Notes under the pieces: model-generated
What the model saw: the letters and a program-made list of their open reading frames with translations, nothing else
What the model was told of the DNA's origin: nothing
The model's database searches: none
Shown: positions 2,950 to 28,642 of the stretch, piece by piece
Position numbering within the stretch: position 1 is the first letter of the stretch
How the letters are laid out: each line of letters opens with the position of its first letter
Made by a program: the position numbers and the translations under genes
From: a virus
Lineage: Duplodnaviria; Heunggongvirae; Uroviricota; Caudoviricetes
IMG/VR virus record: IMGVR_UViG_2531839523_000005
DNA: 37,471 nt
Direction: 5' to 3' (one strand)

Positions 2950-4248
2950 TCACGCCGCCCTCACGATATAGTTAAACGCGATATTGCGGGGGCGGGTTAT
3001 GTTAAAGAATGCTCCGTTTAATTCGGCTTTTGCGCGACTGTTTGTTCCACCCAGAATTACGTACCACAAATAATCGCTACGGTAATTCCCCGCAAACACC
3101 TTATCGCCGCCATAGTCAATATTATTTCCGTTACTCATGTACGAGATATCAAGCGAAGAATCGTTATCGTCATGACCGCCGACCAGTGTACCTTTCTGCC
3201 ATGAAAGCAACTTACGCCCCTCGTCAATCTTGCGCCCGTCGTCCCATCCACGGATAAACTCACCGCGTAAATCGGGAAGACGGAGGGTCGGGTAGACTCT
3301 GGCCAGAACAGGATATTGTTCTTTTGTAAAGGCGCGCCCGTCGCACTTTAACCAGCCTGCTGGCGGTGTGGCGGTGGGCCATGGAACCGGTACACCAACA
3401 GGCAATGCAGAGCCTTCCCCCAAACCAAGGTAATTGAGGACATCTTTTATACTGCCCTTAGCGATAATAGCGCGACCAATAGCTGTAAGGGTTGCCAGCG
3501 CTGCGCGGTCTGCTCCGGTAAAATAAGGCAACCGATCTGCTGCAGTGGCAAGTCCTGCCAGAGCAGTGAGCGTGGCATCTGCCGGTTGTTTTCCGTTTGC
3601 CAGATCGTATGCAGCCTTGACCGCTTTCGGTGTGGCGGCCAGTATTTCAGACGTGCTGTTGATGGCACTGCTCAGTTGTACGGTGCCTTTTGCCGTCAGC
3701 GAGGCAGCAGGCACTCCCGTTATCTGACTCCACGGGTGAGTGTGGCTGACGGGCGCCTTGCCGGCTGCAAGGTCGTATGCAGCCTTGACCGCCTTCGGCG
3801 TGGCAGCCTCAGTTTCTGATTGACTGTCCGTGGCGCTGCTCAGTTGTACGGTGCCTTTTGCCGTCAGTGAAGCCGCAGGCACTCCCGTTATCTGACTCCA
3901 CGGGTGAGTGTGGCTGGCAGGCGCCTTGCCGGCTGCCAGGTCGTATGCAGCCTTGACCGCTTTTGGTGTGGCGGCCAGCGTTTCAGAGGTGCTGTTGGTG
4001 GCACTGCTCAGTTGGGTGAACCCCTTAGCTGTCAGTGTCGCGTCCGGGTGGTTACGGGAACGTACGTGTTCAGCCAGTGACTGTGCGGCTTCCTCCGTTT
4101 TCTTCTTCAGCCATTTCGTCCTGTTTGCCAGTTGCCGGGGGGCTCGATTTGATATCCCGTCTGCACCACCCAGAACCGGATCTGATGTCTCCAGTTGATA
4201 GATATTTTCTTCCCACTTTTCTGTTTCATTCAGGTTTCCCATAATCAA
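2950..4248 (-). CDS. Tail fiber protein (Mu S-like), currently expressed orientation
   Basis: 432 aa; three tandem copies of a ~56-aa PKAVKAAYDLAAGKAP…HTHPWSQITGVPA repeat; C-terminal part shared with and then divergent from the plus-strand cassette. Confidence 0.85.
   Translation of the reverse strand: MIMGNLNETEKWEENIYQLETSDPVLGGADGISNRAPRQLANRTKWLKKKTEEAAQSLAEHVRSRNHPDATLTAKGFTQLSSATNSTSETLAATPKAVKAAYDLAAGKAPASHTHPWSQITGVPAASLTAKGTVQLSSATDSQSETEAATPKAVKAAYDLAAGKAPVSHTHPWSQITGVPAASLTAKGTVQLSSAINSTSEILAATPKAVKAAYDLANGKQPADATLTALAGLATAADRLPYFTGADRAALATLTAIGRAIIAKGSIKDVLNYLGLGEGSALPVGVPVPWPTATPPAGWLKCDGRAFTKEQYPVLARVYPTLRLPDLRGEFIRGWDDGRKIDEGRKLLSWQKGTLVGGHDDNDSSLDISYMSNGNNIDYGGDKVFAGNYRSDYLWYVILGGTNSRAKAELNGAFFNITRPRNIAFNYIVRAA
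3230..3428. repeat. Right arm of perfect 199-bp inverted repeat
   Basis: Reverse complement of 1812-2010; lies inside the tail fiber coding sequence. Confidence 0.85.
3415..3440. other. Candidate gix-like crossover site at outer boundary of right inverted repeat
   Basis: Minus-strand reading CCTCAATTACC-TT-GGTTTGGGGGAA; same inner half as the left site. Confidence 0.35.
3545..4048. repeat. Three tandem 168-bp coding repeats inside the tail fiber gene
   Basis: GTCGTATGCAGCCTTGACCGC recurs at about 3604, 3772 and 3940 (period 168 bp). Confidence 0.8.
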
Positions 4249-25883: not shown

Positions 25884-26234
25884 TTAAAGCCCCATCGCAA
25901 CAGCCAGGCAGACCGCTGCAACAATCAGTGCACGGCGGATTAACGCAGCAGAAAACACCAGGTGAAGGCCGGTCTGTACCGGGAAACGCCCTTCAGCCAT
26001 CAGCCTGTCGTCATGTTTCAGGTACTGACCGGGACGGGCTTTGGGGAAGAGCGAACGGTCAAGCCAGTAACCCAGCACTGCTGCCAGCGTGATGAGTGCC
26101 AGCTTGTAGATCACAACAGGCAGCTGCTGTGGTGAGACCAGAGCGATGGTGCCCAGCAACAGCACTGAGGTCAGCAGCCAGCCGCTGAGGCGAGGTTTTT
26201 TAACAGGGGGAATGAATTTTTTCAGGTTTTTCAT
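25884..26234 (-). CDS. Putative holin, first gene of the lysis/late operon
   Basis: Start MKNLKKF at 26234 with AAGGAGA RBS; three predicted TM helices. Confidence 0.55.
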   Translation of the reverse strand: MKNLKKFIPPVKKPRLSGWLLTSVLLLGTIALVSPQQLPVVIYKLALITLAAVLGYWLDRSLFPKARPGQYLKHDDRLMAEGRFPVQTGLHLVFSAALIRRALIVAAVCLAVAMGL

Positions 26235-26364
26235 GTGTGTCTCCTTATCTGGTGGAGACAGCATCACAAATACAGGGCGCGAAGGATTTTAAAGCGCGTT
26301 AAGAGAGCCGGGGATACGGGATGTGCAGGATAAACGATGAATTATTCACAGAGGAGAATACGAT

Positions 26365-27093
26365 ATGACGCAGACACTGAATCCGGTCATCACTGTCACC
26401 GTGTCCGGTCCTGTGGGCAGCGGTAAAAGTTACGTACTGGCGCGAATAGAGGAAGTGGTGAAACAGGAATTCGGAAACAGCGTCATTGTCGACGCCGCAG
26501 ACGTGGACGGTGAGCGCCGTATGAGTGGGGATGATCTGAGCACATGGCAGAAACCACGGGCTGGCACAGTGATCAGGCTGGAGGAATACACGGGACAGGG
26601 CCTGTTGTCATACGGCGAGGAGCGTATCTGTCGGACGAATGAGCTGCTGGATGTTATATGCCCCACGGGCCGGCAACCCTGGATACTGCCCGATGCACTG
26701 CATGCCACCATTGCGGCACTGATGACAGTTTACGATCAGGAGCTGCTCATGAAGGAGTTACGTAAACTCACTGGTCAGTCAACAGAATGTTGTTCGTCCC
26801 CGAAGTACGGCAAACAGGAACACATCCCGATTAACCAGCCTCCCCGGTTCTTCGACGAATACCTTCTGACACCGGAAAATAAAGCTGAGCATGAAGAGAT
26901 CAAAGCGGCGTTGTTCCGGGAAATCAGGAAGATTGCTGAAATGCAACTGGAGGGCGGGCTGGACAGAGTGATGGCGAGAGGAGAATGGGCATCGCTGTTT
27001 GAAAGAGTTTCCCCGGAATTACTTCCCCTCGCACTGGCTATCGGGATTATGCAGACAGCGGATAAACCTCACTTACGTTCATTAAACACGTAA
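26365..27093 (+). CDS. P-loop NTPase-like protein of unknown function
   Basis: Walker A VSGPVGSGKSYV near N-terminus; GAGGAG RBS; opposite strand to late operon. Confidence 0.6.
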   Translation: MTQTLNPVITVTVSGPVGSGKSYVLARIEEVVKQEFGNSVIVDAADVDGERRMSGDDLSTWQKPRAGTVIRLEEYTGQGLLSYGEERICRTNELLDVICPTGRQPWILPDALHATIAALMTVYDQELLMKELRKLTGQSTECCSSPKYGKQEHIPINQPPRFFDEYLLTPENKAEHEEIKAALFREIRKIAEMQLEGGLDRVMARGEWASLFERVSPELLPLALAIGIMQTADKPHLRSLNT

Positions 27094-27473
27094 CGCATAA
27101 TCCGGGATACGCATTCAGCGATGACTGCATTTTCACCGGTTTTTACTGCATCCAGAAGTGACTCTTTAAATGGTACGGGCCGGGGCTGCAGAAAGGTCGG
27201 CATGGCATTGAGCAGACAGAGCGTTTTTTCCGTGAGGACGACATCAGCCGCTCCCACAGCCAGCAACTGAGAGTAACGAATATAGCTGTTATCCCGAAGC
27301 CATATCAGCGTATCAATAAAACACCGGCACTTTTTCTGGTCGTGATCAACCTGGTCCGGGATATCGAAAAAACCAGAATAAATCAAAACCTGAGGTGCCG
27401 GATGCGTGTTCAGTAATCGGCAGAATATTTTGCCGGTGAGTACATAAAAATCATCATTTAAGGAGTGCATCAT
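27069..27473 (-). CDS. Hypothetical protein, head-to-head with 27472-27687
   Basis: 134 aa; 3' end overlaps P-loop gene by 25 nt. Confidence 0.4.
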   Translation of the reverse strand: MMHSLNDDFYVLTGKIFCRLLNTHPAPQVLIYSGFFDIPDQVDHDQKKCRCFIDTLIWLRDNSYIRYSQLLAVGAADVVLTEKTLCLLNAMPTFLQPRPVPFKESLLDAVKTGENAVIAECVSRIMRYVFNERK

Positions 27474-27687
27474 GAATCCCCGATTAACGTTAACAGAACA
27501 TCAGCGCCGTGCTGAAGCAGTGAACAATGTTCTGGAAGATATTATCCGGTTATACCGCGGAGAACTGAGTGTCTGTCGTGCCGCTTTTCATTTTCAGGGA
27601 ATACAAAAGCAGTTTGATACTTCTGTTTTTGCAGAAGGTATTACTTATGCCCTGGACCGGATAAGGTCAGAAAATCGCCCCGGATAA
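27472..27687 (+). CDS. Hypothetical small protein
   Basis: 71 aa; strong AAGGAG RBS 6 nt upstream of ATG. Confidence 0.4.
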   Translation: MNPRLTLTEHQRRAEAVNNVLEDIIRLYRGELSVCRAAFHFQGIQKQFDTSVFAEGITYALDRIRSENRPG

Positions 27688-27742
27688 TCCCTAAACCACA
27701 TTAACAGAAATCCCGCCATCCCTGCCGCATCATGAAAGAACG

Positions 27743-27772
27743 ACCAGCCCGGCACCCGAAAGCCGGGCTGGT
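27743..27772. terminator. GC-rich stem-loop between the small ORF and the methyltransferase gene
   Basis: ACCAGCCCGGC-acccgaaa-GCCGGGCTGGT, perfect 11-bp stem; no clear T-tract on plus strand. Confidence 0.35.
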
Positions 27773-27877
27773 CATCGCCCCACAGGAATGCGCTGTGAGC
27801 CGACCAAGGTTCAGTCAGTCTCGCGAGACCTGACCAGACTGCCATATTTTTTAATAATTGTAAAAGGCTTACAGATT

Positions 27878-28642
27878 ATGAAAATGCAGACATTACCCAT
27901 CGTGCCGTGGATTGGTGGCAAACGCCGCCTTGCAAAACACATTCTGCCGCTGTTTCCGGCGCATGAATGTTATGTGGAGCCGTTTTGTGGGGCAGCAGCG
28001 CTCTATTTTCTTAAGACACCCGGCAAGATCGAAGTCATCAATGATATCAACGGTGAACTGGTGAATCTGTACCGGGTGGTAAAGCATCACCTGGAAGAAT
28101 TTGTCCGCCAGTTCAAATGGGCGCTGGTCAGCCGTCAGATCTACAAATGGCTGCAGATCACCCCGGAAGAAACACTGACGGATATCCAGCGTGCGGCACG
28201 GTTCTACTACCTTCAGAAGCAGGCGTTTGGCGGCAAGGTGGCAGAGCACAGCTTCGGTACCTCCACCACATCCCCGCCACGCTTCAACCTGCTACGTATT
28301 GAAGAAGAACTGTCAGCGGCACACCTGCGGCTTTCCAGAACAGTCATAGAACACATGGACTGGCAACAGTGCATTGAGCGTTATGATCGTCCGCACACGC
28401 TGTTCTACTGCGACCCACCGTACCTGGGTACGGAAGGCTATGGTGTGGATTTTCCTGAAGGGAACTACTCGCGGCTGGCAGAGCTGGCCCGGTGCATCAG
28501 AGGAAAAATGATAATTTCGGTGAACGACATCCCGCAGATGCGCGAGGTGTTCACTGGACTGAACATACAGACAGTGAATATCAACTACAGTCTGGCGGGT
28601 AAACCCACGCCGCGCCGTGAACTGCTAATCTGCAACTTCTGA
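27878..28642 (+). CDS. Dam-family N6-adenine DNA methyltransferase (orphan)
   Basis: VPWIGGKRRL, VEPFCGAAALYF, DINGELVNLYRVVK and YCDPPY motifs; start taken at MKMQTLP (27878), the track ORF begins at 27788. Confidence 0.9.
   Translation: MKMQTLPIVPWIGGKRRLAKHILPLFPAHECYVEPFCGAAALYFLKTPGKIEVINDINGELVNLYRVVKHHLEEFVRQFKWALVSRQIYKWLQITPEETLTDIQRAARFYYLQKQAFGGKVAEHSFGTSTTSPPRFNLLRIEEELSAAHLRLSRTVIEHMDWQQCIERYDRPHTLFYCDPPYLGTEGYGVDFPEGNYSRLAELARCIRGKMIISVNDIPQMREVFTGLNIQTVNINYSLAGKPTPRRELLICNF

What the first reader, a model, noticed from the sequence alone, without database searches (positions are those of the whole stretch)
27069..27687. Two small ORFs with overlapping divergent start codons
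The minus-strand 134-aa ORF starts at 27473 and the plus-strand 71-aa ORF at 27472, so their ATGs overlap on a CATG, and each has a Shine-Dalgarno-like element inside the other's 5' end (AAGGAG for the plus ORF, GGGGA for the minus ORF). The minus ORF also overlaps the P-loop gene's 3' end by 25 nt. Both cannot have a conventional upstream promoter, so this is either a mutually exclusive regulatory switch or one ORF is spurious.
Basis: seen in the sequence. Interest (0 to 1): 0.45.

Follow-up and report, generated by a model that had tools for sequence, protein, structure and literature searches.

The report
Back-to-back phage gene pair
Two small prophage genes that start on opposite strands at the same spot (CATG) are both real, and the arrangement is kept in several unrelated phage types, so each gene's ribosome-binding site, and probably the larger gene's promoter, lies inside the other gene; what the pair does is unknown.

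Summary
ORF 27069-27473 (-) and ORF 27472-27687 (+) share a CATG, each has an SD-like element inside the other, and the minus ORF overlaps the P-loop gene by 25 nt.

In one sequence this geometry is not statistically unusual: 35% of random windows give an equivalent pair. Comparison settles it, and neither ORF is spurious.

- The 134-aa ORF belongs to a large phage family (phrog_2266, at least 195 clusters at 50% identity). It has a confident winged-helix model.
- The 71-aa ORF is a conserved three-helix protein.
- The back-to-back junction (CATG, CAT-N-ATG, or starts 4 nt apart as called in L087) with embedded SDs recurs in E. coli and Serratia BcepMu-like prophages, a third BcepMu-like lineage, a tail-cluster insertion, and 48 of 48 P2-like loci.
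- Big-protein identity falls to about 25-30% across these lineages.

In all of them the winged-helix gene lies antisense between co-directional genes. A terminator on its own strand sits upstream of the pair in the BcepMu-like loci.

The best reading is a noncontiguous-operon or excludon-like unit with no spacer. Mutual antisense and transcriptional interference is inferred, not shown. Function is unknown. In 11 loci the small gene survives without its partner.

The parts
27069..27473 (-). 'Big' gene: a 134-aa (133 aa from the second ATG at 27470) winged-helix protein of family phrog_2266. PGAP calls it WP_000972294.1.
27472..27687 (+). 'Small' gene: a 71-aa three-helix protein of family phrog_4490. 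PGAP calls it WP_001069611.1.
   Evidence: phrog_4490, E 7e-53. Homologues in Serratia (25-29% identity), L028 and L087. dN/dS about 0.3. AF2 gives helices 3-28, 34-47 and 51-67, pLDDT 72.
27468..27474 (.). Junction CATCATG: the minus ATG-ATG and the plus ATG back to back.
   Evidence: Invariant in all E. coli-lineage copies and in Serratia. CATG in L028 and in 48/48 full-length plus 11/11 truncated P2-like loci. CATGGAAATG in L087.
27460..27465 (+). AAGGAG Shine-Dalgarno for the small gene, inside big-gene codons 3-5.
   Evidence: Sequence. Equivalents are GGAGG in Serratia, AGGAG in L028 and GAGG/GAGA in P2-like loci.
27477..27481 (-). GGGGA SD-like element for the big gene, inside small-gene codons 2-4.
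   Evidence: Sequence. Equivalents are AAGGGA in Serratia, GGTGAG in L028 and (A/T)GGGA or TGGA in P2-like loci.
27732..27773 (-). GC-rich hairpin (27742-27773) with a U-rich tail on the minus strand only. It is a terminator-like insulator upstream of the big gene's transcription unit.
   Evidence: MFE -36.3 kcal/mol on the minus strand, z about -6. Pairing is kept through double changes in relatives. The Serratia copy passes the terminator scan.
26365..27093 (+). Upstream co-directional P-loop gene (phrog_3787). Its 3' end overlaps the big gene's 3' end by 25 nt.
   Evidence: Mosaic relatives also end in a convergent overlap with the big gene in Serratia (37 nt) and L028 (4 nt).
27878..28642 (+). 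Downstream co-directional DNA adenine methylase (context only).
   Evidence: Pfam MethyltransfD12, E 6e-29. PGAP annotation.
27418..27435 (.). Near-palindrome CGGCAGAATATTTTGCCG, 37-54 nt upstream of the small ATG. It is a candidate operator or promoter element (speculative).
   Evidence: The core CAGAATATTTTGCC is identical in Serratia, including most third codon positions.

Best explanation
Both ORFs are genuine genes of a conserved two-gene cassette carried in the accessory regions of temperate enterobacterial phages. Here it sits in a BcepMu-like transposable prophage of E. coli.

The larger gene encodes a winged-helix protein, probably a DNA-binding regulator, of an uncharacterised family (phrog_2266). 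The smaller gene encodes a fast-evolving three-helix protein.

The winged-helix gene lies antisense between co-directional neighbours (P-loop gene -> [<- wHTH] -> small gene -> dam). Its start codon sits back to back with that of the small gene, so each gene's ribosome-binding site lies in the partner's first codons.

Most likely the small gene is transcribed from the left, by read-through from the P-loop gene's promoter and/or a weak promoter inside the wHTH gene. The wHTH gene is most likely transcribed from a promoter inside the small gene, insulated from upstream minus-strand transcription by the terminator at 27732-27773. The two transcription units then necessarily face each other, and their mRNAs are complementary across both translation-initiation regions. 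Expression of one would depress the other through RNA polymerase collision or promoter occlusion and through double-stranded RNA. This would be a zero-spacer version of a noncontiguous operon or excludon.

Shown: the geometry, that both genes are real, the conserved embedded SDs, the nesting, and the terminator-like hairpin. Inferred: the promoter positions, the interference, and DNA binding by the wHTH protein. The biological output (defence, anti-defence or regulation) is unknown. The confidence given is for the whole statement including the interference mechanism; that both ORFs are real genes I hold at about 0.95.
For: The big ORF is real:
- phrog_2266, E 2.6e-44.
- 53%-identical Serratia and about 31%-identical P2-like homologues of the same length.
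- 195 cluster representatives at E<=1e-3.
- Variable sites by codon position 67/45/130.
- dN/dS 0.20-0.55.

The small ORF is real:
- It stays open and alignable in Serratia, L028 and L087.
- An HMM of A8 scores the L087 partner 14.6 bits, against at most 7.7 in 2000 shuffles.
- dN/dS is about 0.3.
- The P2-like partner forms 58 clusters of constant 63-64 aa, with third-position bias 24/17/42 in codons 21-64 and an in-frame indel.

The geometry is conserved: Serratia 3999/4001, L009, L028, three annotated P2-like phages, 45/45 further P2-like loci and L087. SDs for both genes are present in every lineage.

Nesting is seen in all lineages. No terminator is predicted on the array strand between the P-loop stop and the small gene's start. 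A terminator on the big-gene strand lies upstream of the pair.

Precedent exists: an antisense gene nested in a prophage operon gives mutually exclusive expression in phage 80alpha (PMC11087260). Divergent overlaps are very rare in E. coli, at 2 of 663 overlapping pairs (PMC4161906).
Against: There are no transcript data.

A sigma-70 PWM scan found no strong or positionally conserved promoter inside either partner in five lineages, and the consensus scan found none near the junction.

Synonymous variation near the junction is only mildly reduced in the P2-like set. Beyond the SD and ATG there is therefore little evidence of embedded regulatory sequence.

The small gene persists without the big gene in 11 P2-like loci, and beside a nonsense-mutated big gene in L018. 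The two are thus not obligate partners.

The P2-like small partner is not detectably homologous to the window's.

Half of the sampled family lineages (L025, L026, L088, L089, L090) lack a back-to-back partner.
Confidence: 0.5

Rival explanations
1. Neutral compaction. Both genes are real, but the back-to-back junction is only a frozen by-product of genome compaction or of how the cassette was assembled. The genes are expressed independently, the small gene from the upstream operon promoter and the big gene from its own, with no regulatory cross-talk of consequence.
For: The geometry is not statistically unusual in one sequence. No conserved embedded promoters were found. Synonymous diversity near the junction is only mildly reduced. 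The small gene works without the big gene in 11 loci. Many family members have ordinary upstream regions.
Against: The zero-spacer junction and both SDs survive from 100% down to about 25-30% protein identity, across at least three phage backbones and a change of small-partner family. Neutral drift would be expected to open a spacer somewhere. Any two opposing transcripts over the same DNA are expected to interfere to some degree (established knowledge; PMC7154746, PMC11087260).
Confidence: 0.27
2. Two-component functional system. The wHTH protein is the dedicated regulator (or antitoxin-like neutraliser) of the small protein. The pair acts as one accessory system (defence, anti-defence or superinfection exclusion), and the geometry mainly ensures co-inheritance and tight autoregulation at a shared control region.
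For: One conserved big family is paired with three fast-evolving small families: phrog_4490, phrog_25421 and phrog_2454. The pair sits in variable accessory loci of BcepMu-like phages and in the accessory region between the replication genes and cos/portal of P2-like phages. Family members precede Fic, HipA_2-like and PIN genes and sit beside an AbiJ-like gene. Palindromes flank the junction.
Against: There is no PADLOC, Pfam or NCBIfam match for either protein. The small gene is retained without the big gene in 11 loci and in L018. The small protein has no recognisable fold match. No phenotype is known.
Confidence: 0.2
3. One of the two ORFs is a spurious shadow ORF.
For: Some annotations drop one of the two: PhiKM lacks the 134-aa CDS, and PGAP for strain 4/4 lacks the 71-aa CDS. 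Random sequence often yields such pairs.
Against: Both ORFs are conserved in length and sequence in distant relatives. Both show purifying selection and third-position bias, both have SDs, and each matches independent PHROG families.
Confidence: 0.02
4. Leaderless pair. Both mRNAs start at or next to their ATGs from back-to-back promoters embedded in the partner genes, so the transcripts barely overlap and do not interfere.
For: The start codons abut. Leaderless divergent regulators exist, such as lambda cI from PRM (established knowledge).
Against: SD elements at functional spacing are conserved for both genes in all lineages. No -10-like hexamer lies at the required 7-12 nt upstream in a conserved way.
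Confidence: 0.04

Closest known systems
Noncontiguous operon (S. aureus menE-menC/MW1733; phage 80alpha cI-tha operon with antisense ith-1; PMC11087260, PMC11034616)
   Same: One gene lies in the opposite orientation between co-directional genes of a (pro)phage gene array. In 80alpha this arrangement gives mutually exclusive expression states tied to lysogeny versus lysis.
   Different: Here the antisense gene's start codon touches the start codon of the next array gene (0 to -2 nt). The antisense gene's promoter must therefore lie inside that gene, and both translation-initiation regions fall in the overlap. Co-transcription and reciprocity are not demonstrated. The proteins are unrelated to Tha/Ith.
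Excludon (Listeria; PMC3377988, PMC7154746, PMC12288877)
   Same: Divergent neighbouring genes have 5' transcript regions that overlap and are antisense to each other, which favours either/or expression.
   Different: Classical excludons have an intergenic region and a long 5' UTR of one gene covering the other. Here there is no intergenic region at all, so the overlap is obligatory for both genes.
Face-to-face promoter switches of P2/186-type phages (pR/pL transcriptional interference; from general knowledge, not checked here)
   Same: Opposed promoters fire through each other, and a small DNA-binding protein is encoded at the site.
   Different: Those promoters lie in a defined intergenic control region and govern the lysis-lysogeny choice. 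This cassette sits in accessory regions, and its promoters are unmapped.
MarR-type and other winged-helix transcription regulators

Membership tests
Noncontiguous operon | A gene in antisense orientation nested between co-directional genes | tested here: met
   Window: P-loop(+) / big(-) / small(+) / dam(+). The same pattern holds in Serratia, L028, the P2-like phages and L087.
Noncontiguous operon | The flanking co-directional genes are co-transcribed on one RNA that spans the antisense gene | not testable with these tools
   The support is only indirect. No terminator-like site lies on the plus strand between 27093 and 27472. No RNA data were available.
Noncontiguous operon | The antisense gene has its own promoter | tested here: inconclusive
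   A terminator on its strand at 27732-27773 implies a promoter within 27474-27741. Neither the PWM scan nor the consensus scan finds a convincing sigma-70 site.
Noncontiguous operon / excludon | Reciprocal (mutually exclusive) expression of the opposed units | not testable with these tools
   This needs strand-specific RNA-seq or reporters in a lysogen, with and without induction.
Excludon | Divergent genes whose 5' transcript ends overlap in antisense | tested here: inconclusive
   The geometry forces an overlap unless both mRNAs are leaderless. Conserved SDs argue for leaders. TSSs are unmapped.
Winged-helix (MarR-like) transcription regulators | Winged-helix fold | tested here: met
Winged-helix (MarR-like) transcription regulators | Sequence membership in a curated HTH family, and demonstrated DNA binding | tested here: not met
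   No Pfam hit for the protein or for 44 family members, apart from scattered E>0.001 hits. No NCBIfam hit. The PDB profile search gives only E>0.1 hits to AspA/YjcQ. DNA binding was not tested.
Pfam DUF2513 (a source's name for the Serratia homologue P0012) | A match to the Pfam model above threshold | tested here: not met
   A Pfam scan of 44 members including P0012 shows no DUF2513 hit at E<=0.1.
Type II toxin-antitoxin module | Co-directional bicistronic operon, a recognisable toxin fold, and an antitoxin needed wherever the toxin is present | tested here: not met
   The genes are divergent. No toxin domain was found. Either gene can be lost: big is absent from 11 P2-like loci and nonsense-mutated in L018, and family members occur without a small partner.
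Known anti-phage defence systems (PADLOC-DB v2) | A match of a component to a defence-system HMM | tested here: not met
   No hits for the big or small proteins of four lineages. The P-loop neighbour has only weak P-loop-level hits (E>0.002).

The most novel reading that the evidence does not exclude
The phrog_2266 winged-helix gene and its abutting small partner form a previously unrecognised, horizontally mobile 'zero-spacer' genetic switch. The wHTH protein binds at the junction. Together with obligatory face-to-face transcription, this makes expression of the small, fast-evolving effector (a defence or anti-defence protein) strictly dependent on the prophage's state. That would amount to a compact regulator-plus-payload cassette comparable in logic to aca-acr or 80alpha tha/ith, but built on overlapping start codons.
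Probability: 0.18. Interest if true: 0.72.

Novelty: new variant of a known kind. Interest (0 to 1): 0.5.

Why it matters
Divergent gene overlaps are the rarest class of gene overlap in E. coli, at 2 of 663 overlapping pairs (PMC4161906). They are usually suspected to be annotation errors.

Here the arrangement is genuine. It is carried by about 9-10% of complete E. coli genomes (492-545 of 5426) and is conserved across phage backbones. It offers a clean natural system for studying how two genes are expressed when their ribosome-binding sites, and at least one promoter, must lie inside each other.

It also defines an uncharacterised winged-helix family that travels with variable cargo in prophage accessory loci, including Fic, HipA-like, PIN and Abi-like genes. 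Such a family could serve as a marker for finding new accessory, defence or anti-defence genes.

A practical point follows. Annotation pipelines drop one or other member of the pair inconsistently.

Tried and rejected
- Pfam, NCBIfam and PADLOC scans of both proteins and of relatives gave no family.
- An Rfam search of 26200-28000 at E<=1 found nothing.
- A PDB sequence-profile search for the big family gave only insignificant hits.
- A Foldseek PDB search with the small-protein model gave no hit at E<1. That model is only pLDDT 72, from a shallow alignment.
- Profile-profile comparison of the BcepMu-type and P2-type small proteins found no relation. An HMM test agrees. I therefore do not claim that they are homologous.
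- Genome-contig scans were nearly empty: 0 loci, then 4. The diverse-family alignment was too divergent for locus searches.
- Sigma-70 promoter searches, by both consensus and PWM, found no convincing or conserved promoter in either partner. I rejected the Midge candidate TTGATA-17-TTTACT because it lacks the -11 A and is not conserved.
- Reduced divergence around the junction between the window and L009 was not used as evidence of embedded elements. It rests on one sequence pair and could reflect recombination, and the larger P2-like set shows only a mild effect.
- Literature searches for the protein accessions, for DUF2513 and for 'overlapping start codons' in prophages found nothing.

Full report
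**What the window is**

The region is 100% identical to Escherichia phage PhiKM (genus Bcepmuvirus, a Mu-like transposable phage). A 2.4-kb stretch around the finding occurs in 626 of 5426 complete E. coli genomes, many of them ST131. The 751-nt stretch holding the two ORFs occurs in 545 genomes, 492 of them at 80% coverage or more.

The two ORFs lie in an accessory stretch between the leftward lysis genes (holin, SLT transglycosylase) and the repressor/transposase early region. The local order is P-loop gene 26365-27093 (+), the 134-aa ORF (-), the 71-aa ORF (+), then dam (+).

In a related Klebsiella phage, KP12, the same holin-dam interval holds a different gene, so this is a variable cargo site.

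**Checking the observation**

- CATG at 27471-27474, shared by the two ATGs.
- AAGGAG 6 nt upstream of the plus ATG.
- GGGGA upstream of the minus ATG.
- A 25-nt convergent overlap with the P-loop gene.

The minus ORF starts ATGATG. The second ATG (27470) has the better SD spacing (6 nt against 3 nt). It is also where the PHROG profile and the gene calls in relatives begin.

The geometry by itself is weak evidence. The window has 14 CATG sites with both divergent frames open for at least 60 codons. Random sequence of the same composition yields a pair of at least 71 and at least 133 codons in 35% of trials.

**Are both ORFs genes? Yes**

The 134-aa ORF:
- It matches phrog_2266 (E 2.6e-44).
- It has a 53%-identical, 139-aa homologue in Serratia-type BcepMu-like prophages. 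About 31%-identical, 143-147-aa homologues occur in another BcepMu-like prophage (L028) and in P2-like phages of Klebsiella, E. coli and Salmonella.
- A profile search of 1.84 billion cluster representatives found 195 full-length relatives of about 125-150 aa.
- No Pfam, NCBIfam or PADLOC model matches.

The 71-aa ORF:
- It matches phrog_4490.
- It stays open and alignable in Serratia (25-29% identity), L028 and L087.
- An HMM built without L087 scores the L087 partner 14.6 bits, against a maximum of 7.7 in 2000 shuffles.
- Its model is a three-helix protein (pLDDT 72) with no informative structural neighbour.

Nei-Gojobori estimates:

| Gene | Comparison | dN/dS |
|---|---|---|
| Big | Serratia | 0.20 |
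| Big | L009 | 0.55 |
| Small | L009 and other E. coli-lineage pairs | about 0.3 (0.27-0.59) |

In the better-sampled P2-like set (37 unique sequences), variable sites by codon position are:

| Region | Position 1 | Position 2 | Position 3 |
|---|---|---|---|
| Big gene | 67 | 45 | 130 |
| Small partner, codons 21-64 | 24 | 17 | 42 |

The small partner's first 20 codons vary freely (15/14/16). They nevertheless keep the ATG, the frame and an in-frame indel.

The 'one ORF is spurious' alternative is therefore rejected. Annotation is nonetheless inconsistent: the PhiKM record lacks the 134-aa CDS, and PGAP omits the 71-aa CDS in strain 4/4.

**The junction is conserved far beyond sequence similarity**

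- Serratia loci have the small ORF ending at 3999 and the big ORF starting at 4001, with the same CATCATG heptamer.
- L009 is arranged the same way.
- L028 has CATG.
- The three annotated P2-like phages have 2-nt start overlaps, and the Midge annotators even marked each RBS inside the other gene.
- All 45 further full-length P2-like loci from IMG/VR and GTDB have CATG.
- L087, a family member inserted antisense in a tail/baseplate gene cluster, has CATGGAAATG, with a 90-aa partner 4 nt (or -2 nt) away.

In each lineage both genes have an SD-like purine run at 5-10 nt, built from different partner codons.

The small partners fall into three PHROGs: 4490, 25421 and 2454. The first two are related. 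The P2-type partner is not detectably related to them.

The geometry is not universal in the family. Five other sampled lineages have ordinary upstream regions.

**Architecture and likely expression**

In every back-to-back lineage the winged-helix gene is the odd one out. It is nested antisense between genes that run the other way, and the small gene is the next gene of that array.

On the array strand no terminator is predicted between the P-loop stop and the small gene's start.

On the big gene's strand a strong hairpin with a U-rich tail lies just beyond the small ORF (27732-27773; -36 kcal/mol, z about -6). It keeps pairing through double changes in relatives. In Serratia it abuts the small ORF's stop codon and passes the terminator scan.

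If it terminates, the big gene's promoter must lie inside the small ORF. The small gene can be reached by read-through from the P-loop gene's promoter. It may also have a promoter inside the big gene: in 11 P2-like loci where the big gene was replaced, its first 19 codons are retained upstream of the intact small gene.

Either way the two transcription units face each other across both translation-initiation regions. That is the layout of a noncontiguous operon or excludon, where polymerase collision and double-stranded RNA make the two units reciprocally expressed. In S. aureus phage 80alpha exactly such a nested antisense gene couples an accessory immunity system to the lysogeny/lysis state (PMC11087260; reviews PMC7154746, PMC12288877).

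I consider this the most likely mode of operation. Promoter positions and interference are inferences, however. Simple sigma-70 scans found nothing convincing or conserved, and there are no transcript data.

**What the proteins do is open**

The big family rides with varied cargo in mobile-element accessory loci:
- It is followed co-directionally by a Fic gene (FSL SP-004) and by a HipA_2-like gene in a P4-like element.
- It sits next to a PIN toxin-antitoxin pair and an AbiJ-like gene.

This pattern fits a cargo-associated regulator. The small gene survives without the big gene in 11 loci, and beside a nonsense-mutated copy in L018. A classical toxin-antitoxin relationship is therefore unlikely.

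**Comparison with what is known, and novelty**

The principle of antisense nesting and overlapping divergent transcription is known. Neither protein family is characterised, and no paper in the searchable library mentions them.

The new element is the conserved zero-length junction, where start codons and RBSs interpenetrate. Divergent overlaps are almost absent from E. coli chromosomal genes, at 2 of 663 overlapping pairs (PMC4161906).

I rate this a new variant of a known kind, of moderate interest. It would be more interesting if the pair proves to be a self-contained switch controlling a defence or anti-defence payload.

Noticed in passing
L074-L084 (e.g. L074 about 1560-1640 and about 1990-2060); L033 about 1930-2000: A roughly 70-nt element (TAACGCCTCGC...GTTCAACCCCGCCAGCACTGAAAGCGAGTTTCAGCACCGGCGGCGTTT) follows the big gene in P2-like loci. 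It occurs twice in 11 loci where the big gene body was replaced by other cargo, bounding the replaced segment. It looks like a cassette-boundary or terminator-like repeat.
   Followed up: partly
window 27732-27773: A strong GC hairpin has a U-rich tail on the minus strand only, between dam and the small ORF. The stem keeps pairing through GGCA/TGCC -> GGTG/CACC changes in relatives and in Serratia. What minus-strand transcription it stops, possibly read-through from the repressor gene or antisense-dam transcription, is unknown.
   Followed up: partly
window 26365-27093: The P-loop gene is a mosaic. Its N-terminal 74 aa are 54% identical to a 258-aa protein in L028. Its C-terminal 54 aa are 46% identical to a stand-alone 89-aa ORF in Serratia. 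All three end in a convergent overlap with the big gene, of 25, 4 and 37 nt.
   Followed up: partly
window 27418-27435 and 27484-27493: A near-palindrome, CGGCAGAATATTTTGCCG, lies inside big codons 13-18, and its core is nucleotide-identical in Serratia. A perfect 10-bp palindrome, TTAACGTTAA, lies inside small codons 5-8. Both are possible binding sites for the winged-helix protein.
   Followed up: no
L001 (PQ738613) and L003 (NZ_CP023826): Annotation pipelines drop one member of the pair. PhiKM has no CDS for the 134-aa gene, and PGAP for E. coli strain 4/4 has none for the 71-aa gene, although the DNA is identical.
   Followed up: yes
L018 about 3115-3120 (homologous to window about 27352-27357): One metagenomic viral contig carries CAG->TAG at codon 40 of the big gene while the small gene is intact. 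This is either a pseudogene or a sequencing error.
   Followed up: partly
L024, L088, L089, L090: Members of the same winged-helix family sit directly beside Fic, AbiJ-like, PIN toxin-antitoxin and HipA_2-like genes in other mobile elements. This suggests a cargo-associated regulator family.
   Followed up: partly
window 27788 vs 27878: The dam start codon differs between annotations. PhiKM uses 27788 (284 aa) and PGAP uses 27878 (254 aa). The Pfam domain and the PADLOC MTase_II model match from residue 4-11 of the shorter form.
   Followed up: no
L023 (phage Midge) 44-957: In P2-like phages the orientation alternates (+ - + -) across four genes next to cos: 047, small, big and DinI. Each strand's pair of genes is therefore interrupted by a gene of the other strand, giving two interleaved potential noncontiguous units.
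   Followed up: no
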